Source: Felis catus
Lineage: Eukaryota
Direction of reading: 5' to 3'
DNA length: 64,000 nt
NCBI RefSeq assembly: GCF_018350175.1
Contig: NC_058368.1
Span: 65,598,001 to 65,662,000 of the forward strand
Both the position numbers and the translations under genes were made by a program. Below the pieces are notes generated by a model. That model saw nothing but the letters and a program-made list of their open reading frames with translations, was not told the origin of the DNA and did not search any database. Below, in pieces: positions 1-56,324 of the stretch (within the stretch, counting starts at the first letter, position 1; every line of letters begins with the position of its first letter).

Positions 1-154
<154 letters not shown>

Positions 155-1704
155 TGATTCACTTTGTTCGAGGTGTGCTTTCCTGAGGATCTTGGTTTTA
201 TGTGAAAAACATTTTTTTTTGAAAGCTGGTGCTTTCCTCTCCCTCTTAAACATTTATAACTTTGTTTATTTTTAGAAAAAGCATGAGCTTTCTTGACAAT
301 TCTTAGAGTAATATGTTACAAAGCCTGCGTTAACGAAGAGCTGTTTTGAGTTTGTGGTTTTGCCTGTGAGATTTATTCTGAAAGATTGAGCTTAATTTTT
401 CATGATTAGAGTGATTCTAATTCAGGTTTTGTCACATCATAGCTTGTCTTAATTTTTCATCTGGGGATTTTCTTTAAAGTAATTAAGTGTCATTTAAAAT
501 TATTTGAAATATAGCAACACTTTCGAGAAGACAGGCTTGTTTTAAGTGCTAATGACACAGACTCCTTTATTTTGGAGTTTGGCCCTCCAATAATGCAGCC
601 ACATTTTGCCCTGCAGTGACAGTGCATTCTGCCCAACGTTTAAATCCTGTATTGATTTCCTGATTATAAGCAATCAACTTCATTTCTATATTCTATTTGT
701 TAAATAAACAGTTGGTATGAGAAAGCACAGAGAGTGAAAGTGATTATTACGAGGATGGCGACATTGAATGTTCTCATCAGCACTTGAGAAAAATATTCAA
801 AATCAATCTGATTTTCGTAAACTGAATTAATGATCATGATAAAGTTAAAATTCTTAGGTGGTTGCATGATGTTTAACGCTCTAAGAAATGAATGCACGTG
901 CCGTGGCTCATTGTAAACCAGACTCGCAAATTGTGGCAACCCTTCCTGGTACCTTTGGGTCTTATTAAGTTGTCCTTGGGCAGTGGGACTGCCATCATTT
1001 CCCTTATCCTCTCCAGTCCATGCACCGCGGAGCTAGTTTAGAAAAGGCTCGCCGAAGTTTTGATTTTCCTTTCTCTTCTCTCTGTAGTAGGTAAAATGTT
1101 CTGCTTCATTGCGGCTTTAACCTATTACAGCAACACCAATTCCTTTCAAATCAGCCCTCCGCGTCCTAAAAGGCAGGTCCAACCTGGTGGTGGTTTCAGT
1201 ACTTAAGCTGATGTGACATTTTCCATGTAAGTCAATGGGACTTGCTCTTCTCTGCCAAGTGTTTGAACATTTGCATGGTCTTCTCTGCCCCTCCCTCTGT
1301 GTTCAGCTTTATATGTGGAGGTATATGAAAACAATTCCTTATTTAGAAGTGACGCTGTGCGTGTTGGCGGGGGAGTACTTAGTTGTTGCCCTTGATTGAC
1401 AGATTACAAATTCGGTGACATTCAGGAGCCCCTGAAGGGGCTCTGTGCTGGAGGAACTGTAATGTATCACTTCACATTGAAGCAAATTGAGACGCCTTAT
1501 CGTTTGTTACAGAAAGCACGGAGAGTGATCTGGTGTTGTTGACTTTTACCTGTCTTTGGAAAACAATTCTAGTGCCTTTTCGAAGCTGGACTCCAAAATT
1601 CCGGAAAAGGAATTCTGGGACAGCCTCTGTGATACACAGCGTATATTCCTTTTAATGAAAATACTTTGTGTCTGATAGTTTTATGAGGAGCTGATTCATT
1701 TTCG

Positions 1705-1893
1705 TAAATATTTTTTTGAATGTTTGTTTATTTTGAGAGAGAGAGCCTGAGTGGGGTGGGGGTCAGAGAGAGGGAGAGAGAGAAAATCCCAAGCAGAACC
1801 CGACACGGGGCTGGAACCCACGAACCCCTAGATCGTGACCTGAGCTGAAATCAAGAGTCAGACGCTCAACTGACTGCGCCACCCAGGGGCCCC
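1705..1893 (-). mobile_element. CanSINE/SINEC_Fc, internally deleted
   Basis: Reverse strand GGGGCCCCTGGGTGGCGCAGTCAG head, (CT)n, A-tail; degenerate TSD CTGATT(C/T)ATTTT. Confidence 0.9.
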
Positions 1894-2022
1894 TGATTTA
1901 TTTTTTTAAATGCTATTTAAAAGGAATGAGCCTGATACTTGTATTCTCATAGCAATGCCTTTTAACAATGACTTTTTTTCCCCCCATACTAATGACTTTT
2001 ACTTTTGTTTTACTAAAGAAGC

Positions 2023-2027
<5 letters not shown>

Positions 2028-2081
<54 letters not shown>
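2028..2081. repeat. (CT)n microsatellite
   Basis: About 27 perfect units. Confidence 0.97.
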
Positions 2082-2083
<2 letters not shown>

Positions 2084-4080
2084 GATGTGTTTTAAATTGT
2101 TTTAATGTACTTGGGGGCACTATGTCAGTTGGTTTGACAGGATCTTGATTTTTGCTAAGATTAGATCTGACATGGGGGTTGACGAATTCTTTTTTAACAG
2201 TGCATCTCAGGTTGGGATGGGAGAGAAGTTGAGATTTTTTTCAAGGAAGCTATCGGCCAGACTTATTTTTAAAAATCCAAATGTGACCCTGATGAACTCA
2301 GCTTTTGAAGAGCCTGTCTTAAAAAAAAATTATGAAACTATGTAAATTTGGAAGTCACCATTCTCATTTCGGCTACTTCTTTAGGCGGTTACATGAAGGT
2401 CAGCCACACAGTTGTAGGACTTATCTTCTCATCCCGTGAAGGTGATCCTGCGAAGTCACCTGTTGGGGAAAGGGGTACATTCACACAGCCAGCTTTCCGT
2501 TTTCTCCCTTAGCTTTTTTCAAAAAGAACACTTCCTCACTGATGAGTATCAGTGAGTGTGAGCACCGAAGTATCTAGGATCAGTTGTGGAATGGTACCCT
2601 CTGAGCCTTATTTTCCCAGATAAAATCCGTGGTGCCGTGAAAGGCTTGGAGTTTATTTTTAGTGGTTTCCTATTATTCTGTGAGTCCGTTTGCATACTCA
2701 CTGGGGTCTCTTGATCCAAAGCATCCGTTTTGCATTTCTGCTGTGGTCCCACGTTCTCAGAGATCTTGATTTGTCATCAGGATTTTGCATGTTTTTGTTG
2801 GCTACCTGTTCTCCTTCGGATGAATGACTATTCCATGAGAAGGTGAGCACTCCCTTTCCTACCATTCTTATTTTCATTTAGGTAGAGTGGCAATTTAAGT
2901 TACACCTGATACATGTGATTCAGTCCAAACCATATTCAGAGAGGATAAATTTAGCCACTATTAACCATTAATCTATAGTTGTTGTTTTCCTTATTGTACT
3001 TTCTTAGAAATGTTTTGATTCTATTTCACTTTTCATTTTTTGTGGCAGAGGTGACTCCTAAAATTTGAAATTCCCAAACATTTAATGTAACATAGCATTC
3101 TGTTTCTTGCCATGTTCCTTCCTACTTTTTATTAATATCTTTGGTAATATTTAAAAGAAACACGGTATAGAATTGTAACTATTCATTGAGTGGTCAGAAA
3201 CTAACCCTGAATTAATATGAATTCTTCCCCACCTTTCCTAAATGATCAAGCTTTGCTTCATACTCCCATTAGTCCAAAACTTTGTAGCTGAGAGGCAATA
3301 AATTGCAAGAGTATATAATATCAATTGCAGACATTTTCCTTCTTTGGCAGAGGACTTTCTTATAACTGAGACGCTCTCTTTTTCTTTTTAAACATAGAAT
3401 TGAAATGTTATGAAGGTATATAAAATAAAAGTTTATATTCTTGGCACTGGTACTTTTGCAAGTGGTTCACAAGGTTTGGGTTAGTTGGTTGTTGTTTTTT
3501 CTTTTTTCCTTCTTTCTCTGGCCAAATCTCCATCTCTGGCTCGCATCGTGTACCCCTAGAAGCCCATCACCCTGCGGACTGGGGCTTAGCCTGCAAAGAT
3601 TTCCTCAGAACGATTCAGTGTTGCACTCAATTTGCTCTGTAGCCAAGACCAGACCTTTCTGTCACACCCCAGGGGTTACAATTATGAAGACCATCAGGTA
3701 TACCTGGCAGAGTGATCTCAGCATTACTCCCTTGCTTCCTACCTGTCTCACCTCTGCCAAACACCCGACAGCCAGAAGTTTGAAAACAAGTAAACAAATC
3801 ATATAAAAACATTCAAAAAAGGGAGGGACATCCTTGTGCACTTGCTCATTTTCCCAGGATTTTTGTGTTTAGTGACCATTTCACCTGTCAAATTGGCATT
3901 TGTGTCTAAATCACCGTGATTGTCATGCTTCTAAGTGGCTAATTTTTAGGGTTCTAGGAAAATAGACAACAACCACATGCTCATGTTGGTATAGTATAGT
4001 AATAAGAGACAACTCCTGGCCCCGTTCCTCGCTCTGTATAGATGTTAACCTATCGACCGAAGTGAGCCACAGTGCAGAGC

Positions 4081-4551
4081 TCTGATGTAAGTCAAGAGTA
4101 TTAGGCTACAGACTTGGTTTCATTCTCCTCGGTGGAAACTTGGCAAGTGACTTACCCTCTCTAGACCCCAGGTCCCTCGGAGCTCTTCAGTGGGGGACTC
4201 AGCATTGAGCCCCAGACTGAGCATTCCTGAAGCCCTGCTTATCGTCACTGGTACCCCTTAGACCCTCTAGTGCTTTCCAGTCTCCAAATATGCTAAGATT
4301 TCCTGAACAGCAGTATCCTCTCCTCTGTCTCTTGTGTCTGTCCTGTCCCAGTTATTGTGGGGAAGAGGTGATGATGTCTTGAGAGGGAAGTGGAATGAAT
4401 TTTGTTTAATCCTTAAAAAAGAAAATTACCTACCTAAATATAGTCTTGCCCCCAAGGAACCTGGGGCCTAGAGAGGGTAAGTCACTTGCCAAGTTTCCAC
4501 CGAGAAGAATGAAACCAAGTCTGTAGCCTAATGCTCTTGACTTACATCAGA
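4081..4551. repeat. Inverted repeat: 100-bp arms (4081-4180 and 4452-4551), 271-bp spacer, MIR-like arms
   Basis: Base-by-base pairing gives 95/100 matches with no gaps; arms contain the MIR-core-like TTGGCAAGTGACTTACCCTCTCT. Confidence 0.95.
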
Positions 4552-5449
4552 CTTATAAATAGCAATGGAATAGGAACTTGACATTTGCTTGAAATTATAA
4601 CTAAGCCTTTATTTGTTTCAAGCGGACACTGGCTAAAAATCATTGATATTCCTTTAACAAGGCAACAATGATATTGTTGGGTAAAGAATCTAGCCACATT
4701 TTTGGAAAAGGCAGGAATAGTATTCAATTAGAAGTTGTCTGTCAATTAAAGGGGAACGGGTGTTTTGTGCAAAAATGTTATTGAATCAGCTAAGCTGTAT
4801 TATTTATTCTCCTTATCTCACAAAGCCCTGGTAGCTTCTGTCTTAATGTGAGCACCAGCACCCTATTCTCCAGGAACGTGCATGGAATATGGATTCTTGA
4901 GAGACAGGAAAATTTCATTGAAGGGATATTTTATTTTGCTTATTTTTTCTTCAGATTTATTTGTGCCGAATTTTATTCACATTTGAAACTCAATATGAGA
5001 GTTTTTGTTGTTGTTTAGTTTGTCCTTCTTGGTCTTATTATTTTACTTTCCTTCCTGGTTTTTATTTATGCATTTTAATGACACACATTTGTCCAGAGAT
5101 TTTTGCAGCAAGTAAATTTTTAAGAGCAAAAAATAAAAATAAAAATAAAAAAAGTTGAGCAGTAATTTCCATCTTTCTGAAGAACTTATTCTATACTAAC
5201 ACAGTCAGCTCTGATTTTACTGAATGTGGAAATAATTTATACACAGCGACATAATATTTTTATACTGCAAATCTGCTTGTGTTTTCTTTTAAAATATCAT
5301 TTCTCATCTATATACTGTAGAGATGACAATAATGCAATGATATCTATAAAATATGGTTGAATTTTCCCAGAGAAAACACTTGAATAGGAAAAACCGCTAA
5401 GTAGTTTTCCATATGTGGTAGAATCGTCTATATTTCCTGTCATATGAGT

Positions 5450-7972: not shown

Positions 7973-8210
7973 TTTTTTTTTTATTTATTTAAAAAAAATT
8001 TTTTTTAAATGTTTATTTATTTTTGAGACAGAGAGAGACAGAGCATGAATGGGGGAGGGGCAGAGAGAGAGAAAGACATAGAATCGGAAGCAGGCTCCAG
8101 GCTCTGAGCCATCAGCCCAGAGCCTGACGAGGGGCTCGAACTCACGAACCGTGAGATCGTGACCTGAGCTGAAGTTGGACGCTCAACCGACTGAGCCACC
8201 CAGGCGCCCC
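7973..8210 (-). mobile_element. SINEC_Fc
   Basis: Full-length; TSD TCCCTTTTTC (7963-7972 and 8211-8220). Confidence 0.96.
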
Positions 8211-8505
8211 TCCCTTTTTCAAATGAATAACATGGTAAAGGCATAAGAAGCATTTATATGCTTTGAGGGTTCTAAGATTTAGAAGGAAAGATTCAGGTGA
8301 GAATCTGAAATGACAAACCTTGTCCTGACAGGAGTCCCTGAGGTGGGCACCTTGAAGGAACGAGATGGACAGGAAAGTGATAATGATTGAATGAGTTGAT
8401 GAGTCCATGTTTGTTTGTTTGTTTGTTTCTTAATATTCTCATTTTTGTATGGTTTCTAAATATCTATAATAACAAAAAAGTTTTTTAACAAGAAATAACT
8501 GACTT

Positions 8506-8727
8506 GGGGCACCTGGATGGCACAGTGGGTTAAGTGTCTGACTTTAGCTCAGGTCGTGATTCACGGTTCCTGAATTTGAGCCCTGCATCTGGGTCTCTGC
8601 TGTCAGCGCAGAGCCCGCTTTGGATCCTCTGTTCCGCCGCCCCCCTCCTCATCTCCTCCCCCTCTCACGCTCCTGTGCATGTGTGCTCTCTCTCTTTCTC
8701 TCAAAAATAAACATAAAAAAATAACAA
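8506..8727 (+). mobile_element. SINEC_Fc/CanSINE
   Basis: GGGGCACCTGGATGG head, CT-rich tract, A-tail, degenerate TSD. Confidence 0.93.
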
Positions 8728-9075
8728 AACGAGAGATAACGGACTTGAGCATATACAGCATGGGAGATTTTCAGACCGTGAATTCATTGTAGATACCTAA
8801 CAATGTCAGCAGATAATTGTCACTCTCATGTCTTGTGTATTTAACAACAGTAAATTAAACAGAGAGTGCCATTTTCAAATTTGCAAAGATGAACGGAATT
8901 TACACAGACTTTAACTCAGATTGAGGCCACTTAGTTTCTGCTTCCATCCAGCATTTTATCATTGTTTTTCTAGAAATGGCCTCTCCAGTTTATCCCCATG
9001 AATAGGCGTGTTAAAAAAAAATCCCTCTATTAAGTATGATTCAAAATGTTGAACTCTAGTTTAGAAGATATATGG

Positions 9076-9296
9076 GGGGCGCCTGGGTGGCTCAGTTGGT
9101 TGAGTGTCCGACTTTGGCTCAGATCATGATCTCACGGTTCATGGGTTTGAGCCCTGCGTCAGGCTCTGTGCTGATAGCTTGGAGCCCGCAGCCTGCTTCT
9201 GATTCTGTGTCTCCCTTTCTCTCTGCCCCTCCCCTGCTCGCGCTGTCTCTCTCTGCCTCTCAAAAATAAATAAATGTAAAAAAAAATAAAAAAAAA
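9076..9296 (+). mobile_element. SINEC_Fc
   Basis: Full-length; TSD AGAAGATATATGG. Confidence 0.96.
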
Positions 9297-16424: not shown

Positions 16425-16615
16425 GACTATGGTAAGCACTTTTGTAAGCACTTTGTATGCGTTCTCTCATTTAGCTTTGACAGTGATCCTATGAAGTTGG
16501 CATTATTATTATTATCCTTGCTGTTTTATAGTTGAGGAAGCTCTTGCTTGGAGACATGAGTAATTTGCTGAGTTCACATAGCTAGTAAAAGAAAGAGCTA
16601 GGATTTAAACCAACC
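16425..16615 (-). mobile_element. MIR
   Basis: ATCCTATGAAGTTGGCATTATT...TTTTATAGTTGAGGAAGCT...GAGCTAGGATTTAAACC. Confidence 0.75.
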
Positions 16616-17591
16616 TACACCCTGTACCAAGCTCTCCTTTCTCCCACATGGAAAGCAAATCCAATTACCTTGAAATGAAGTCTTTGAGCTCTGCTTCTGA
16701 ACTGAAATCTTCTGTGTTAAAAATGGAAAGCTCTGGTGACTCTACTGTCACTCTGTGGCTTTTGCCATTCCTTGGATTCTAATTGGTAGATGGATTCGTA
16801 CTTTCGGTGATAAAGATTATTTTGTGAATAAGCCTACCCTTTGGCTTTCTCACTTGGACAAGGTTGGGTATGGTCTAATCAATGATAAGCTTGACCCACT
16901 CACACCTAGATAGATCGAGTTATAGGTGCTATAAACAGAACAACTGATCCCGGAGAAAAGCCTGACCTGGGTGCAGAGGTAGGATCCCAGTTGAAGAGTG
17001 AGTCAGAGCTCACATGGGAAGCTTGGCATATGACAAGCATTACGGTGACAGGATCTCAGACACAAGAAACAAGAAAGGGAGCCACTTGCCAACCAGAAGT
17101 GATACCCAAGATTCCAACCCAAATAGTAGCAAGTCTGGTAATACAGTCTGGAAAGTCGGAGTCCTTCATTGCTAATGTCAAAAAGGACTCCTGTACCTAC
17201 ACATGGAAGATGGGGAACCAAAAATAAACAGATTCTGCCAGCAGAAAAGGTGTGCTTTGTCTATTCTTAGGAAAGCATTCAACCTCCAGTAGCATGGAGA
17301 GAGTTGCCAAGTTATCAGAGTTATATTCAACTGTGTAACATGTTCCATGTTTTAACGTGAAATTGTGTTATATATTTTATACTTTATCTCATGAAGAAAA
17401 TGGTACAGTTCATGATGTCACTACTGCAATAAAGATAAAATAGTTCAAGCTTCTGAAGATTCTATAAAACATAAAGTAGCTTTGATTTCACTGATAGTTC
17501 TTTTTCTTCCTTATTCCTAGTAAACAGTCCTGTAAACTTTCTATGAACTCTGATGTTGCTTTAAATGCAAATATACTGTAACATAGACGAA

Positions 17592-22400: not shown

Positions 22401-23547
22401 AGAGATTCATTTAATAATGAGTTCTTCATTTAATAATGAGTACTTCAACTGAGTATTGAAAGTCATGAGATTAAATTTAAATGGAAAGGACACAAACCCT
22501 CATTCTCTGATCTCTGCTACTCAAAGCATGGAAGGCAAGAGTTGGCAATCACCAAGAGCGATTGAACACCACGTTACCCATGGTTGGAGCTCATTATACT
22601 AGGATTGAGAGGAATGTAATTCTCTGGAATCACTAAGATATTTTCAGAGCTTAGTACAATTATAGATGAAAGGGGAGCATTCGCTGCTTTCCTAACTCTG
22701 GTATAAAATTCGACTCTTAACAAGAGGAAGAAAGGGATAAAAATCTGTTTTCTTAATTATATTTTATAATCATTGCACATTTTTTCAACATGGCAATATG
22801 CCTCATAATTTAAAGAAAACATGGGATGGTGAAGACAAATTAATAATAAGAAAAATCTCTTACTCTGACGTTGTATGAAAATGAGGTAAGGTATCTGGTC
22901 TAAGTTCCAATGTGTGAGTTAGCTTTAAAATCTAAAACATCTGTGTATTCAAATGATATTAATTGAATTAATTATTATATATTAATATCTCGGGTGTCTC
23001 TAGAAGATTTATTTTCTTAAACATACCACATTATTTAATGTCACTGAATATGCTGGTGTTCTGTTCAAATGTCAAATAACTGACAAAGTTCTAGGGAAAC
23101 GCTAGTTTTTCATGCATGTTTAAATTTCTAGTGCACTCCAACTCATCTAAAAGCAAAATCTAGCCACTAAACTACCTTGGACTCTATCTTACATTTGAGG
23201 GAAGGACTGTCCAGTATAATATGAGACATACATATCTATTTTTAAAGTATAATTCTATATTAATTAGAAACCCAAGGTCAGATATATACAAGTGAATGTT
23301 GACATTCTTGGTTATGGAGGATTGAGTTTTAGTTACTCACATTATCATGACATTATTATCAGTAACTACTGGTAAGTTCCTACTTTGCATTAAGTAAATC
23401 TGCTTGTTTTCAGTACATGGAAAGACACCAGTGTTAGAGCAAAGATGTATCTAGATCAGGTGAAATTAATATATAGACTTACACAACACACTTATGTAAT
23501 GGGTGTATCATTTGGTCTCATATAGTCATTTTCGAACTTGAAAATGT

Positions 23548-23775
23548 GGGGCACTTGGGAGGCTCAGTCGGTTGAGTGTCTGGCTCTTGCTTTCAGCTCA
23601 GGTCATGATCTCATGGTTTGTGAGTTCAAGTCCTATGTCAGTCTGCATGCTGGCAGTACAGAGCCTGCTTGGGATTCTCTTTCCGTCTCTTCTCTCTCTG
23701 CCCCTCCCCTGCTCATGCTCGCTATTTTTCTCTCTCTCAAAATAAATAAATAAATTATAACAAAGTAAAAAAAAT
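23548..23775 (+). mobile_element. SINEC_Fc/CanSINE
   Basis: TSD AACTTGAAAATGTG. Confidence 0.95.
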
Positions 23776-24530
23776 AACTTGAAAATGTGAGTATCTAAGA
23801 GAGAGTGAGCGAGACTAAGCACTAGAGAGTATACTGGGTACTAAACACTGCAGTAAGAAAGTAATTTTTCTGTGTTGCTCTGTGAAGTAGGTGAAGTAGA
23901 AACAGAGCCGAATGTGTGGGTAGTACAAAGCGTAAGATTTCCACACGTAACAAAGAACTTTTCCACAGCACTGCCTCCTGAAATGGTGAATTTCCAATGC
24001 TGGACACACAAAGCTCAGTTTTCTTCTTCTTTCTTTAATAATGTAAAATAGTAGTTTTCAAATTATTTAGAATAGGAAATAGTTCTTTCAACTGGAACAT
24101 TTGAACTGGAGCACAAAAGTATGTAAAGCAGAGAAAAACAATAGGGCACACAAATCAATTTATTTTATAATTAACATGAATGATAATTGCTGATTAATTA
24201 GCCAATCCTTGGTTTAACAAGAGCCCTGATGGTGGTCTCCAGTATGTTAAAATCTGGGGTTTAACATTTTTCAGTGTGTATAGCATTTGTTTCATTGCAT
24301 CCTTTTTTTTTTTAATCGTGAAATCTGAATCAAATAGTTGAGCTGCTTGTGTAGGCCTGGAAAATAGTTTTAATATTAACCTTAGTAAAATCCTGCTCTG
24401 TAGTGAGTGGGAGGGTGAACAGAGACACATGTGATTTGCCTCTGGTGTGTGTGAGGAGTGGCTGTTGAGTAAATAGAGGACCTGGAGGTCATTCTGAGGT
24501 GATTAAAAGTTTATATGGGCAAGATACCCC

Positions 24531-24561
24531 TGTCTGTCTGTCTCTCTCTCTCTCTGTCTGC

Positions 24562-24613
<52 letters not shown>
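24531..24613. repeat. Compound (TGTC)n/(TC)n/(TATC)n STR
   Basis: Directly visible. Confidence 0.93.
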
Positions 24614-24657
24614 GGCAATTGTTGTGGATCTGGTTATAGTTATTAGATACTTAAGAC

Positions 24658-24846
24658 TTTTAAAAAATGTCTCTTTATTTTTGAGGGGTGGGGAGGGGCA
24701 GAGAGAGAGGGAGAGAGAATCCCAGGCAGGCTCCGCGCCCTCAGCACAGAGTCCCACACGGGGCTTGAACCCATGAACTGTGAGATAATGACCTGAGCTG
24801 AAGTCAAGAGTCGGATGCTTAACCGACTGAGCCACCCAGGTGCCCC
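24658..24846 (-). mobile_element. CanSINE inserted at the tail of an L1 fragment
   Basis: Reverse head ...CCACCCAGGTGCCCC; short TSD AAG(A/G)CTTTT. Confidence 0.93.
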
Positions 24847-24850
24847 AAGG

Positions 24851-50954: not shown

Positions 50955-52859
50955 AAAAATCTCTAGAAAGAAGGTACAGAGGATTAGCAGCATTGAGTTG
51001 TACAAAAAAATCTTGATCTTGGGAGAACGGTCCAGGAGTGAGTGAATGAGTTAAAAATGTGCTGACAGTAGGTTTGTCCAACCTTCTTTTTTTTTTTTTT
51101 TTTCTTTCTCCACTGAAAAAATAATACATCTGCATATCTGACAGCACAGGAGAGCTTAGTGACAAACCTACCCAGTCTTTGCTAAAAGGCAAGACTGGAC
51201 AAAAACAAGGTGCTTAAAATAAGTAAGACCTGAGCACGATGTATCCTTCCTTCATACATTGCAGTGGGTGAATAGTCAATCCATTGAGTAATAAATTCTC
51301 CACTGATGTTCTACTAGCAGGAAAACATCTCTTTCCTATTTTTTGTCCCGTGCTTCTTTATCACAACCCTTATTCAACATCTGACGTGAGATCCTCTCAC
51401 ATGATCACTCACGGGCTAGAGATCTTTACGGTTCTCATTTGCCTGCAGGTAAATTTAGATATTTGTTTATTCACCTGTGATGCACTGAGTACTTACCACA
51501 TGTAACTGGGTGCCAGGTGTCAGAAAATTCCAACAGATGAAATAACTGAGAGATATAACTGCATATACACGTGTGTATCTGGCTTCTAGTCCTTTTGGAG
51601 AGGAAACTCCTCTGTCCGTTAACTGCTGTCAAAAGCTTGGTAATGGAGCAAACTCGCTAGGGTGATTTTTAAAAATTTAGTCCAGATTTCAGCTCCTTCT
51701 CATCTCCTTGGTTCCTGAACTCTGCCCAAGATTCTATTCTCCTAATTTTTTTCTTTGGAGTTACTTATTAATAAGGACCCCTTGGTCATTTTGCTTTATA
51801 TCCTGAGATTATAAGTTTTGGAGAATTTAATAGCTCTTGCATGAGTCATCTATAATAGACATTCCGTAGAATAAAATGTATCCTCATTTAAAAAAATGTA
51901 ATTGGAAAGGAAAAGGTACATTGTCAGGCCTTGTTCTGTCTATGGAAATCAATTCAAATCATGATTATACTCCTAGTCTATTTGAGAAGAATAAAATATT
52001 CAAAACTAATGGTTTCAAGCTCTCAGCAAAACTAGACTCTTATTGTGAGAACTCCACGGTGGTTCTGGAAAACAGTTTTGATTTTTCTCAGCCAATACAA
52101 ATACTGTTTTTGGTATGAATTGAGGAAACAGCATTTTCAGTGAGCCTCTACTGAACTTTCTTGAAATATTAAAATAAAGATGACAGAATCACAACTTGAT
52201 TATCCTGCATTGCCATATCCAATGGGAACAGAGTTGGGCATCTAGAAAAGTCCATTTCCTGTGGGTACTGTTATTTTTTCCAGGACATTCTTCTTCAACC
52301 ACTTTCTGACTTGCTATACTAAGAAAACTGGCAAACTTAAATGATTACTCACAGATAAATAATCTTGAGGGGCAGATAAGAGGGTCAAATGAATGTGAAA
52401 AAAAATACCTTTCTCTGTGTTAAATTTGTTTTCATATTGTATTAATCAAATCGTGCAAAGTATAAGATATCGAAACCATAGATAAATATATATGTGGCCT
52501 GGTTCTCTCATTGTTTTATCTTTAAATACGATTTACATGCCATGATTTAATACGTTATCTTACTCCCTCCAAAAAAAATACAAAGAATAACTTTTAAGCA
52601 CACCGCGTATGGCACTAAAGGCAAGTAAGCCTACAGTTTTAATGTCCAATAGTTGTCATACTAATATTTGGAAATGTACCTGATGCTAAGTACATTAGTG
52701 CAAACATGTAATCCTTTGTCAACAATTGTCTTCCATTGGCATTATAAAATCCTGGATCAGGACCATTTCTTGTGAACTACATTACATCACCAACTCAGAA
52801 AACTTTTAGACACCCATGCATGTACTTTACTATCACAATGAAATGCTTGAAATATTTGG

Positions 52860-53070
52860 TGTTGTCACACTTTGGGTGCTTAATATATGTCAGGCGCTGT
52901 TCTGAGAGCTTTTTAAATGTTAACTCATTTAATCTTTAGAACATTTAATTAAATGGGTATTTTTGTCCCAGTTTTATAGATGAGGAAACCAAGGCACTGT
53001 GAAGTTAAGTAATTTTTCTGAAGACATACGGCGTGACTCCAGAGCCCGTCTGTTTTCAGTACCACGCTAC
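52860..53070 (-). mobile_element. MIR
   Basis: AACTCATTTAATC...TTTTATAGATGAGGAAACCAAGGCAC..GAAGTTAAGTAA...TGACTCCAGAGCCC. Confidence 0.85.
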
Positions 53071-53374: not shown

Positions 53375-53573
53375 TAATTCTTGCAGACTTTTGGGGATAG
53401 GAGGAGTGTCAAGAGAATAAAGACAGAGAAAATTATGGGTGTTCAGGGATGCCTGGGTGGAACAGTTGGTTAAGTGTCCGACTTCGAGTTTTGGCTGAGG
53501 TCATGATCTCATGGTTCATGAGTTCGAGCCCTGCATGGGGTAGTGAGCTAACAGTGTGAAGCCTGCTTGGGAT

Positions 53574-53629
<56 letters not shown>

Positions 53630-53860
53630 TGCCCCTCCCCCCCCACCTTTCAGAATTCATAAATACGTGTTAAAAAAAGACAGGTATATTTTATGGCAAT
53701 TCCTTGCCAGAAACTCAACTGGAATAATAAAAACTTTGAAAGAAAAATGATGATAGCCAGAGTTCTCTGTGGATTTTCTAAGAATAAATCATACCAAATT
53801 TATCTCATTTGTACTTTGATAGACTTTTCGGTCCAGTAGATATGCTAATTGCAGTAAAGG
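53375..53860 (+). mobile_element. CR1/L3 LINE ORF2 relic interrupted by a SINE
   Basis: From 53765 translates LCGFSKNKSYQIYLI, then after a frameshift FDRLFGPVDMLIAV; resembles the CR1 RT motif QHGFxKxKSCxTNLISFFDxVTxLVDxGxAVD. Confidence 0.65.
53446..53678 (+). mobile_element. CanSINE
   Basis: Head GGGATGCCTGGGTGG, (CT)n, tail. Confidence 0.92.
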
Positions 53861-54384
53861 ATGAGTAGGTGTATTAGAATCACCCGGTGATCTTTTTCAA
53901 CCACCTCCACATGACTTTCCCCTGAGTCACTTTAGCACCTTGGCTGGTTGCACATTCAACACCCCACCCCCACCACCAGCACAGGCACATACTGAGTATT
54001 ACTGGGCGGCTCTCTCCATCCTGTCCCACCTTTGAGAAGTACTCCATATAGTAAGAGACTATGGATTGGGATTGTGTCTCACATGTGAATGGTTTAAAAG
54101 AAGAAAAAGTTGGGGAGTTACTATGAGTAAAATGAAGGAAAAGGAAAGTTATTTTCTCCCAAGGATATACGCCTGTATGTTCCAGATAAAAATTTGGAAT
54201 GTGTTTTCTTACCATCCTTCCAGGTTTGAGCATAGACTCTTGTTCTTAGTGAGTACTCAGGAAATGTTTATTGCTGAACAGTGGAGGAGAGAAAGAGAGG
54301 GGGGAGGGGGGGAGGGAGGGAGGGAGACAAAGAGAACAGTGGGGAAGTGAAGAAGGGAGGGAGAAAGAGGCAACTTTGTGTTTC

Positions 54385-54611
54385 TCTTTTTTTTTTAATT
54401 TTTTTTTAACGTTTATTTTATTTTTGAGACAGAGAGAGACAGAGCATGAACGGGGGAGGGGCAGAGAGAGAGGGAGACACAGAATCAGAAGCAGGCTCCA
54501 GGCCCTGAGCCATCAGCCCAGAGCCCGACGCGGGGCTCGAACTCACGGACCCTGAGATCATGACCTGAGCTGAAGTCAGATGCTTAACCGACTGAGCCAC
54601 CCAGGCGCCCC
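54385..54611 (-). mobile_element. SINEC_Fc (left member of a head-to-head pair)
   Basis: Full-length; TSD TGTGTTT(T)CTCTT. Confidence 0.96.
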
Positions 54612-54665
54612 TGTGTTTCTCTTCTGCCTTCCCTATATACATAAAGATAAATATGTATGTTTATG

Positions 54666-54872
54666 GGGGCGCCTGGGTGGCTCAGTCGGTTGGGTGGCCG
54701 ACTTCGGCTCAGGTCATGATCTCACGGTCTGTGAGTTCGAGCCCCGCGTCGGGCTCTGTGCTGACGGCTCAGGGCCTGGAGCCTGTTTCCGATTCTGTGT
54801 CTCCCTCTCTCTCTGACCTTCCCCCATTCATGCTCTGTCTCTCTCTGTCTCAAAAATGAATAAACGTTAAAA
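54666..54872 (+). mobile_element. SINEC_Fc (right member of a head-to-head pair)
   Basis: Full-length; TSD AAATATGTATGTTTATG. Confidence 0.96.
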
Positions 54873-55070
54873 AAATATGTATGTTTATGTATAGATAATA
54901 ACTATATATGGAGATATAGATACAGCTCAAGACAATGCCTGACACGTATAAGTACCCAATAAATAGAAGCTATTATTAGTTAATATCATTAGATCATAGG
55001 ATATCAAGTTCCACTTTACTCTTCACTCATAAGGCAATAATGGGAATAACTGTGCTTTGTTCTGGGCAGT

Positions 55071-55650
55071 TTTTTTGTTTTGTTTTTTTTTTTTGTTTCT
55101 CCAATGTGAGCATAGTTTACACAAAATGTTACATTAGTTTTAGATGCACACCATAGTGATTCAACTTCTCTATACTATGAATGCTATTCTCAGCATAAGG
55201 GTAGCTACCATCTGTCACCATATAACACTGTTACAGTATCATTGCTGTGTTCTCTACGCTGTGCCTTTTATTCCCATGACTTATTTATTTTATAACTGGG
55301 AGCCTGTATCTCCCCCCCACCCCCTTCATCAATTTTGCCTGTCTCCCCATTGCTCTCCTCTGGCAACCGTCAGTTTGTACTATGTATTTATAGGTCTGGT
55401 TCTCCTTTTTGTTTGTTCATTTGTTTTGTTTTTTTAGATTCCACATATAAGTGAAATCATATGGTATTTGTCTTTCTCAGTCTGACTTATTTCTTTTAGC
55501 ATAATACCCTCTGGGACCTTCCATGTTGTTGCAAATGGGACAATTTCATCCTTTTTTATAGCATGTGTCTGTACACATACTACATCTTCCCTAAACATTC
55601 ATGTTTTGATAGACACTTAAATTGCTTCCACATCTTGGCTATTGTAAATA
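55071..55650 (-). mobile_element. Carnivore L1, 5'-truncated 3' end
   Basis: T-tail; TTTAGATTCCACATATAAGTGAAATCATATGGTATTTGTCTTTCTC; ends ...TTGGCTATTGTAAATA; degenerate TSD TGGGCA. Confidence 0.92.
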
Positions 55651-56098
55651 GTTGGGCAACTTGTTTTAAGAGGAACATCAATAAAATAGAATGTGACATG
55701 CTTGGCCAATGGAGTCCTCTTCCTTCCCACCCTATCCACTTCCTATCCCACCATGTGCAGGGCATTATAAACCTTCATTGTCAAGTGTTGCATGGATGGA
55801 TGGGAGGAAGATATAAGGCCACTAAAGTTTCATATTTCAGGTTTGGTCATGTGGAAGCCCAAAGTAACTTGGTGTTTGATATTTAAGGGATGCAGTTAAG
55901 GGAGATAATCAAATGTTTAAGTTTTCCTTGACGGTCACAGTTTATGTGTGTGTGATTATCAATTAGTTTTTAAGTTATAGAAGTGTTCCTATTTGGATAA
56001 GAAATTATACGATTACCCCACATCTAGGTTAAATACGTTGTAGCGCAGAAGACACACATTTAACTTAACCATAGGACAAATACACAACGCATTTGCGC

Positions 56099-56324
56099 TC
56101 TTTTTTTTTTTTTAAGTTTATTTCAAGAGAGAGAGACAGAGACAGAGAGAGACACAGAGAGAGAACAAGTGAAGGAGGGGCAGACAGGGAGGGAGAGAGA
56201 GAAAATCCCAGGCAGGCTTCACACTGTCAGTGTAGAGCCCAGTGTGGGCTCGAACTTAAGAACCATGAGATCATGACCTGAGCCGAAGTCAAACGCTTAA
56301 CCCACTGAGCCACCCAGGTGCCCC
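56099..56324 (-). mobile_element. CanSINE/SINEC_Fc
   Basis: Degenerate TSD ATTTG(C/A)GCTCTT. Confidence 0.93.

What the first reader, a model, noticed from the sequence alone, without database searches (positions are those of the whole stretch)
4316..4482. Candidate GPC6 poison exon whose 5' splice site is buried in a 100-bp RNA stem
Seen: the loop of the 4081-4551 inverted repeat holds an A-free, AG-free pyrimidine tract (4316-4349, 29 of 34 C/T) ending in CAG at 4351. The right arm holds AGG|GTAAGT (intron start 4477). These define a 125-nt exon (4352-4476). Spliced to the phase-1 GPC6 exon it reads V-I-V-G-K-R-TGA, an early stop. The left arm carries the exact complement of the donor (ACTTACCCT, 4150-4158) inside an uninterrupted duplex. 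Established: stems that cover a 5' splice site block U1 binding, MIRs can be exonised, and exons with premature stops trigger NMD. Inference: the hairpin may silence this cryptic exon or act as a structure-controlled switch on GPC6 dosage.
Basis: partly seen in the sequence, partly recalled or inferred. Interest (0 to 1): 0.8.

Follow-up and report, generated by a model that had tools for sequence, protein, structure and literature searches.

The report
Chance pseudoexon inside intronic SINE hairpin
A stretch in a huge intron of the cat-family GPC6 gene looks like a small stop-carrying exon whose exit splice signal sits inside a long RNA hairpin, but such look-alike exons occur here about as often as chance predicts and nothing shows that this one is ever used.

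Summary
A 100-nt, 95% complementary inverted repeat (4081-4180 / 4452-4551) is real. So are the pyrimidine tract, the CAG, the 125-nt segment 4352-4476, AGG|GTAAGT at 4477 and its complement at 4150-4158. Exon 1-137 is GPC6 exon 2, phase 1, and the join reads VIVGKR-stop.

The intron is about 281 kb.
- The exact complement in the left arm adds no independent evidence. Any motif inside one arm of a 95% inverted repeat has its complement in the other arm.
- The arms are two inverted copies of an old MIR-like SINE fragment that share derived changes. This points to a local inverted duplication or gene conversion.
- The repeat's core is one base away from the donor motif.
- In silico the donor is strongly occluded: opening cost is 25 kcal/mol, against 1.7-8.5 for 19 other donor-like sites.
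- No RNA-level or cross-species test could be run.

Most likely this is a neutral intronic hairpin carrying an unused pseudoexon. Interest is low.

The parts
1..137 (+). 3' part of GPC6 exon 2, ending in phase 1; real donor GACG|GTAGGT at 138
   Evidence: Translation. Pfam glypican hit at C1:65597912-65598139. All gene-naming hits say glypican-6.
4081..4180 (-). Left arm of the inverted repeat: MIR-like SINE fragment in antisense orientation
   Evidence: 100 nt, 95%. Repeat-profile hit 4195-4142 (-), E 0.0054. 83% identity to the repeat consensus.
4150..4158 (+). ACTTACCCT, the exact complement of the donor-like 9-mer
   Evidence: It lies in the perfect 37-bp helix 4128-4164 / 4468-4504.
4181..4451 (+). 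Loop of the hairpin (271 nt). It holds the acceptor-like site and the first 100 nt of the candidate exon. The two inner flanks are not detectably alike.
   Evidence: Inner-flank alignment score is 7 against a shuffle mean of 8.6.
4316..4351 (+). Pyrimidine tract (29 of 34 C/T, no A) plus CAG: acceptor-like site
   Evidence: Mean P(unpaired) 0.44. No YTNAY motif 10-75 nt upstream.
4352..4476 (+). Candidate 125-nt pseudoexon, with a stop after 6 codons when joined to exon 2; stops in all three frames
4401..4551 (+). Right MIR-like SINE copy in sense orientation. Its last 100 nt (4452-4551) form the right arm.
   Evidence: Repeat-profile hit 4401-4490 (+), E 7.7e-5. Arm aligns to consensus positions 170-265 at 80%.
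4474..4482 (+). Donor-like 9-mer AGG|GTAAGT, derived from the SINE core and fully paired in the stem
   Evidence: The repeat consensus at this site reads GGTTAAGT, one base from GGGTAAGT.

Best explanation
This is a neutral by-product of repeat history, not a regulated exon.

Two inverted copies of the same piece of an ancient MIR-like SINE lie 271 nt apart, 4 kb into the ~281-kb second intron of GPC6. A local inverted duplication or gene conversion made them 95% alike. When the intron is transcribed, the two arms should snap into a ~100-bp double-stranded stem (inferred from folding).

The SINE core is one base from a consensus 5' splice site, so the sense-oriented arm carries AGG|GTAAGT. A pyrimidine-rich acceptor look-alike happens to lie 125 nt upstream, in the loop. 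Together they form a pseudoexon of the kind that long introns hold by the dozen.

The stem hides its donor automatically, so the pseudoexon is probably never or almost never spliced in. The hairpin is removed and degraded with the intron. By analogy with other intronic inverted SINE pairs, it is possibly edited A-to-I first.

What is shown: the anatomy, the repeat origin, the chance-level frequency of the motif pair, and the predicted occlusion of the donor. What is inferred: folding in vivo, non-use of the exon, and editing.
For: - **Chance frequency.** At donor >=8/9 and acceptor >=29/34 Y without AG, there is 1 pair on the + strand and 1 on the - strand. With 20 donors and 10 acceptors, about 0.8 pairs are expected. 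At relaxed cut-offs the counts are 2 vs 2 and 12 vs 16. The intron runs from window position 138 to the next glypican exon at C1:65879454, about 281 kb.
- **Repeat origin.** A recalled 22-nt repeat-core motif occurs 182 times in the assembly, against 0 for the reversed control. A profile built from 30 of those copies hits 4401-4490 (+) at E 7.7e-5 and 4195-4142 (-) at E 0.0054.
- **Arms are copies of each other.** They are 80-83% like the consensus but 95% like each other, without gaps, so they share their derived changes. No third copy exists in the genome.
- **The donor comes from the repeat.** The consensus differs by one base at that site. 2 of the 30 copies carry GT in the same register.
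- **Hairpins like this are common here.** 4 of the 13 inverted pairs found within 2 kb in the window have arms of 100 nt or more.
- **Donor occlusion.**
- **No sign of use or of selection.** 0 of 120 proteins continue with VIVGKR. Only 1 of the 5 arm differences preserves pairing. There is no strict branch motif and no GC rise over the upstream flank. Rfam finds nothing on the hairpin.
Against: - By consensus, both splice motifs are individually good: a GTAAGT donor with 8 of 9 matches, and a 34-nt AG-free tract.
- It is the only pair on the sense strand of this window that reaches the strict cut-off.
- The acceptor is predicted to be about half open.
- No RNA data were examined, so low-level or NMD-masked inclusion cannot be excluded.
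- The protein check is weak. NMD isoforms are rarely predicted as proteins, and only 120 of 223 hits were listed.
- No MaxEntScan or SpliceAI score was computed.
Confidence: 0.72

Rival explanations
1. Silenced cryptic exon. The 125-nt segment would be spliced in and would truncate GPC6 if its donor were free. The hairpin is what keeps it out, so the stem matters for correct GPC6 expression even though it is not a switch.
For: The donor is strongly occluded in silico, at 25.3 kcal/mol against 1.7-8.5 for 19 other sites, inside a 37-bp perfect helix. Experiments on ATM and CFTR pseudoexons showed that unused 5' splice sites held in stems become active when the structure is disturbed (PMC1935003, abstract read). 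Stable structure at the 5' splice site also marks non-exonising Alus (PMC2639721, passages).
Against: Most pseudoexons are silent without any stem, and the motif pair is at chance frequency. There is no strict branch motif, the exon starts with T, and the middle is AT-rich with no GC rise. The stem exists because of a duplication, and 4 of the 5 arm differences break pairs. Nothing could be tested at RNA level.
Confidence: 0.15
2. One reading: a genuine poison exon whose inclusion is tuned by opening and closing of the stem (by helicases, editing or transcription speed), setting GPC6 dosage through NMD.
For: The anatomy is compatible. The stop comes 6 codons after the junction, with seven further glypican exons downstream. 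The acceptor is open and the donor is closed.
Against: There is no transcript evidence. A full-text search for 'GPC6' with 'poison exon' found 0 papers. 0 of 120 proteins carry the predicted tail. The opening cost of 25 kcal/mol is more than double a rough, recalled 8-10 kcal/mol for U1 pairing with a 9-mer. Nothing suggests selection on the stem. Frequency is at chance level. Regulated poison exons are typically highly conserved (recalled), whereas this structure looks like a recent local event, with only 5% arm divergence.
Confidence: 0.05
3. The hairpin is a small-RNA precursor (miRNA, or endo-siRNA from a long hairpin) hosted in the GPC6 intron. The exon-like motifs are irrelevant.
For: It is a very stable ~100-bp foldback within a transcribed intron. 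From memory, some mammalian miRNAs are reported to derive from inverted MIR or L2 pairs.
Against: No Rfam family matches the hairpin at E up to 10. A 100-bp stem with a 271-nt loop is far from pri-miRNA geometry. No small-RNA data were examined.
Confidence: 0.04
4. Assembly artefact: a foldback chimera of the assembly rather than real genomic sequence.
For: Inverted duplications can arise as long-read artefacts (general knowledge).
Against: The arms differ at 5 of 100 positions, all transitions and some at CpG sites. That is what real divergence looks like, not an artefactual perfect foldback. Six runs from three studies hold 92-94% of the sampled words of window 1-4700. None of them was laid, and one may be the source sample.
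Confidence: 0.02

Closest known systems
ATM and CFTR intronic pseudoexons whose unused 5' splice sites sit in RNA stems (Buratti et al. 2007, PMC1935003; abstract read)
   Same: A deep-intronic exon look-alike whose donor-like sequence is locked in a stem. The proposed effect is the same: the stem blocks recognition of the donor.
   Different: Those cases were shown by mutagenesis and splicing assays, with short local stems. Here the stem is a 100-bp inverted SINE duplication, nothing has been tested at RNA level, and no inclusion event is known.
Intronic inverted SINE pairs (inverted Alus in primates; inverted MIRs flanking ciRS-7, PMC7371899, title and start of abstract only)
   Same: Two copies of one SINE family in opposite orientation within one intron, able to pair in the pre-mRNA. 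The window holds three more such pairs with arms of 164-211 nt.
   Different: The arms here are parts of a very old SINE yet 95% alike, so they are copies of each other rather than two independent insertions. They do not flank a real exon, so back-splicing is not expected. Editing was not tested.
Exonised MIR elements, e.g. the single-hairpin MIR exon (PMC4615370; title and start of abstract only)
   Same: MIR sequence supplies splice-site-like motifs inside an intron, and RNA structure bears on recognition.
   Different: That exon is documented as spliced after an activating mutation. Here there is no evidence of splicing. Only the donor and the last 25 nt come from the high-identity arm, and the acceptor lies in non-repeat loop sequence.
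Conserved regulatory poison exons coupled to NMD (e.g. in SR protein genes; recalled, no paper read)
   Same: A premature stop soon after the upstream exon, with many exon junctions downstream.
   Different: Those are defined by observed inclusion, a rise on NMD block, and extreme conservation. None of these could be shown here, and the structure looks evolutionarily recent.

Membership tests
Poison (NMD-coupled) cassette exon | Observed inclusion in transcripts (both junctions) | tested here: inconclusive
0 of 120 listed exon-2-containing proteins carry the predicted tail, which is a weak test.
Poison (NMD-coupled) cassette exon | Premature stop more than ~50 nt upstream of a later exon junction | tested here: met
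   TGA after 6 codons. Further glypican exons lie at C1:65879454 through 66425119. In silico only.
Poison (NMD-coupled) cassette exon | Transcript level rises when NMD is blocked | not testable with these tools
   Needs RNA-seq after UPF1 knockdown or cycloheximide.
Poison (NMD-coupled) cassette exon | Conservation of the exon and its splice sites across species | not testable with these tools
   No mammalian relatives are held. Look-ups and one metagenome scan found nothing.
Pseudoexon with stem-sequestered 5' splice site (ATM/CFTR type) | Acceptor-like and donor-like motifs 40-300 nt apart, deep in an intron | tested here: met
   The site is 4.2 kb into a ~281-kb intron.
Pseudoexon with stem-sequestered 5' splice site (ATM/CFTR type) | Donor paired in a stable RNA structure | tested here: met
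   Prediction only: P(unpaired) 0.0004 and opening cost 25.3 kcal/mol, against 1.7-8.5 for 19 other sites. MFE z = -15.
Pseudoexon with stem-sequestered 5' splice site (ATM/CFTR type) | Inclusion appears when the structure is disrupted | not testable with these tools
   Needs a minigene or genome edit.
Intronic inverted SINE pair forming dsRNA | Two copies of one SINE family in opposite orientation within about 2 kb, in a transcribed intron | tested here: met
   Profile hits on + and - strands. Arms. Intron of GPC6.
Intronic inverted SINE pair forming dsRNA | A-to-I editing clusters in the arms in RNA but not in DNA | not testable with these tools
   The read-laying cap was lost.
MIR-like SINE (family name recalled) | Significant similarity to a profile of the repeat family | tested here: met
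   The profile was built from 30 genomic copies found with a recalled 22-nt core motif (182 matches, 0 for the reversed control). E 7.7e-5 for the right copy and 0.0054 for the left. No Dfam or RepeatMasker library was available, so the name MIR is not confirmed by a curated library.
Known miRNA or other curated RNA family | Match to an Rfam covariance model | tested here: not met
   No hit on 4081-4551 at E up to 10.

The most novel reading that the evidence does not exclude
A lineage-specific inverted duplication of a MIR fragment has created, in felid GPC6, a structure-gated poison exon. When the 100-bp stem is unwound or destabilised (by helicase activity, A-to-I editing of the arms, or fast transcription), the donor is exposed, the 125-nt exon is included, and GPC6 mRNA is destroyed by NMD. 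That would be a newly evolved dosage control on a 1.1-Mb developmental gene.
Probability: 0.04. Interest if true: 0.55.

Novelty: new member of a known kind. Interest (0 to 1): 0.15.

Why it matters
If the exon were used, it would be a clean natural example of a young repeat-derived RNA structure gating a poison exon, and a possible handle on GPC6 dosage. As the evidence stands, it mainly illustrates two traps when reading raw sequence. First, strong-looking splice-motif pairs arise by chance in very long introns. Second, a motif inside one arm of an inverted repeat always has its complement in the other arm, so the burial of the donor is not independent evidence of design. The one mildly unusual fact is that a fragment of a very old SINE is present as a 95%-identical inverted pair. 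This points to a recent local inverted duplication or gene conversion.

Tried and rejected
- **RNA-seq.** The look-up of sequencing runs listed 24 runs, of which 20 hold the stretch or a part of it. Only 2 holders are on record as RNA. Four raw-read RNA runs of the same species label were chosen. So there are no junction, depth or editing data.
- **Conservation.** The own-genome tool holds no relatives. Earlier findings by sequence, by relatives and by words gave nothing. One exact-pattern scan of metagenome contigs with 29 nt of the arm gave 0 matches.
- **Other copies in the window.** Sensitive blastn of both arm regions against the window found only each other.
- **Known RNA families.** Rfam found nothing on the hairpin.
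- **Literature.** 'GPC6' with 'poison exon' returned 0 papers. One search was rejected for a syntax slip.
- **Inner-flank homology.** None was detectable, so gene conversion between two old insertions and a simple inverted duplication could not be told apart.
- **Splice-site scores.** MaxEntScan and SpliceAI were not available. I did not substitute recalled matrices.
- **Joined query.** I did not search with a joined exon 2 + pseudoexon protein, because joined sequences are not to be typed.

Full report
**What is there.** The window starts inside a coding exon. Bases 2-136 translate without a stop as a glypican segment, and base 137 is the first base of a split codon, so the exon ends in phase 1 before GTAGGT.
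- A search with these 45 residues found 223 proteins at E <= 1e-5 among 230 candidates. Among the 120 listed, every name that identifies a gene says glypican-6.
- A Pfam glypican scan of the window's own 2.43-Gb, 71-contig assembly puts this exon at C1:65597912-65598139 and the next exon of the same gene at C1:65879454. The intron that holds the finding is therefore about 281 kb long.
- A second glypican gene lies upstream on the same contig.

- Arms 4081-4180 and 4452-4551 are 100 nt long, 95% complementary and 271 nt apart.
- The tract 4316-4349 has 29 of 34 pyrimidines, with no A and no AG, and is followed by CAG at 4349-4351.
- The segment 4352-4476 is 125 nt. AGG|GTAAGT lies at 4474-4482, and its exact complement lies at 4150-4158.
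- Joined to exon 2, the frame reads V-I-V-G-K-R, then two stops.
- The five arm differences sit at 4099/4533, 4127/4505, 4165/4467, 4174/4458 and 4178/4454. The donor therefore lies in a perfect 37-bp helix.

**Is it more than chance? The two parts of the observation give opposite answers.**
- The hairpin is far beyond chance. Folded as RNA, 4061-4571 has an MFE of -252.5 kcal/mol, against -146 +/- 7.1 for dinucleotide shuffles (z = -15; 0 of 100 shuffles as good).
- The exon look-alike is not.
  - The sense strand of the window has 20 donors, 10 acceptors and 1 pair, which is this one.
  - The antisense strand has 27 donors, 7 acceptors and also 1 pair.
  - At looser cut-offs the two strands give 2 vs 2 and 12 vs 16 pairs.
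  - From the sense-strand counts, about 0.8 pairs are expected by chance (my arithmetic: 10 x 20 x 261 / 64000).
  - By extrapolation, an intron of 281 kb should hold about four such pairs.
- The exact complement of the donor in the left arm adds no independent evidence. Any 9-mer inside one arm of a 95% inverted repeat has its complement in the other arm about 63% of the time (0.95 to the ninth power).

**What the arms are.** The arm has no copy in the assembly other than its partner, and blastn against the window finds only the partner.
- The sequence looked to me like the core and 3' part of a MIR SINE. That name is recalled; no Dfam library is available here.
- To test it, I searched the assembly with a recalled 22-nt core motif. 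It occurs 182 times (87 forward, 95 reverse), against 0 for the reversed control.
- A profile built from the 30 fetched copies hits the window six times at E < 0.01. Two of those hits are 4401-4490 on the + strand (E 7.7e-5) and 4195-4142 on the - strand (E 0.0054).
- So the hairpin is made of two copies of this SINE in opposite orientation. The right copy extends inward to about 4401.
- The arms match the repeat consensus at only 80% (69 of 86 aligned bases) and 83% (77 of 93), with several gaps. They match each other at 95% with no gap, so they share their derived changes.
- Independent copies in the window are 67-83% alike (10 pairs). Among the 30 genomic copies, 330 of 435 pairs had at least 60 aligned columns. 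Their median identity is 82% and the maximum 93%. These figures are biased upward, because all 30 share the 22-nt motif.
- Inside the arms, similarity stops abruptly. The inner flanks score 7, against a shuffle mean of 8.6.
- The arms are therefore copies of each other, made by a local inverted duplication or by gene conversion. I could not tell which.
- All five differences are transitions, some at CpG sites, as expected for neutral decay. Four of them break a pair and one leaves G-U, so nothing suggests selection to keep the stem.

**Where the donor comes from.** At the donor, the repeat consensus reads GGTTAAGT where the arms read GGGTAAGT. That is a single base change. Of the 30 genomic copies, 2 also carry GT in the same register, as AGGGTGAGT and AGGGTAGGT. 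The donor is a by-product of the SINE core.

**Other exon features.**
- No strict YTNAY branch motif lies 10-75 nt upstream of the AG.
- The nearest upstream AGs are at 4296, 4309 and 4312.
- The segment starts with T.
- Its GC content is 0.41, against 0.53 in the 200 nt upstream and 0.36 downstream.
- It has stops in all three frames.
- None of this excludes splicing, but none of it speaks for an exon.

**Structure and the donor.** In a partition-function fold of 3881-4751:
- The donor 9-mer has a mean unpaired probability of 0.0004 and costs 25.3 kcal/mol to open.
- The 19 other donor-like sites of the window (at least 8 of 9 matches) cost 1.7-8.5 kcal/mol, and the real exon-2 donor costs 8.0.
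- The acceptor tract is about 44% unpaired.

If the RNA folds as predicted, the donor is inaccessible. The left arm is transcribed about 300 nt before the right one, so pairing should be prompt (inference). The principle is established: unused 5' splice sites of the ATM and CFTR pseudoexons are kept silent by stems (PMC1935003, abstract), and stable structure at the 5' splice site marks Alus that do not exonise (PMC2639721, passages).

**Context.** Long inverted repeats are common in this intron. Within 2 kb, the window has 13 inverted pairs of 40 nt or more. Four have arms of 100 nt or more: 210 nt at 89%, 211 nt at 82%, 164 nt at 74%, and this one. I did not check it.

**Evidence of use.** There is none, and the decisive test failed.
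A repeat beside those places met the cap.
- As a weak substitute, I looked at how the 120 listed proteins containing this exon continue after HKKFD. 55 continue with the canonical next exon. Many run into the intron or into assorted other sequences. None continues with VIVGKR.
- A full-text search for GPC6 with 'poison exon' found 0 papers.
- Cross-species conservation could not be examined.
- Rfam has no family on the hairpin.

**Verdict.** The most likely reading (about 0.7) is a neutral intronic foldback made of a duplicated old SINE fragment. It happens to carry a chance pseudoexon whose donor is hidden as an automatic consequence of the duplication.
- A genuinely competent cryptic exon held down by the stem is possible (about 0.15).
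- A regulated poison-exon switch is unlikely (about 0.05).
- A small-RNA precursor or an assembly artefact is less likely still.

Both the kind of object (an inverted SINE hairpin) and the mechanism (a stem-sequestered pseudoexon donor) are already known, so interest is low.

Noticed in passing
window 54402-54875: An even longer intronic hairpin: arms of 210 nt, 89% complementary, only 54 nt apart. It is probably an inverted pair of young carnivore SINEs. Related inverted pairs lie at 53494-54570 and 54666-56324.
   Followed up: no
window 8000-9286 and 23547-24847: Two more long inverted repeats in the same intron: 211 nt at 82%, 865 nt apart, and 164 nt at 74%, 973 nt apart.
   Followed up: no
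window 3797-3885 (-): Weak U6 snRNA-like match covering the whole model. It scores 23.4 bits, below the gathering score of 44, at E 0.005. It may be a decayed U6 pseudogene about 200 nt upstream of the hairpin.
   Followed up: no
window ~1725-1895 and ~2027-2082: A tRNA-derived carnivore-type SINE (identified by eye, name recalled), followed by a (CT)n microsatellite of about 55 nt.
   Followed up: no
window 16425-16641 (+), 52854-53012 (+), 39046-38902 (-), 22369-22309 (-): Four further copies of the same MIR-like repeat, found with the profile built here (E 7e-14 to 6e-7).
   Followed up: partly
proteins P0002-P0055: Dozens of short predicted proteins in public data join GPC6 exon 2 to read-through intron sequence or to assorted non-canonical sequences. 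Tails after HKKFD include GR..., VLPDYG..., DTPDSQ... and others. Gene predictors readily pick pseudoexons in this giant intron in many species.
   Followed up: partly
window 4083-4091 and 4541-4549: The outer end of the left arm carries a second GTAAGT on the sense strand (GATGTAAGT, 7 of 9 matches). Its complement lies in the right arm.
   Followed up: no
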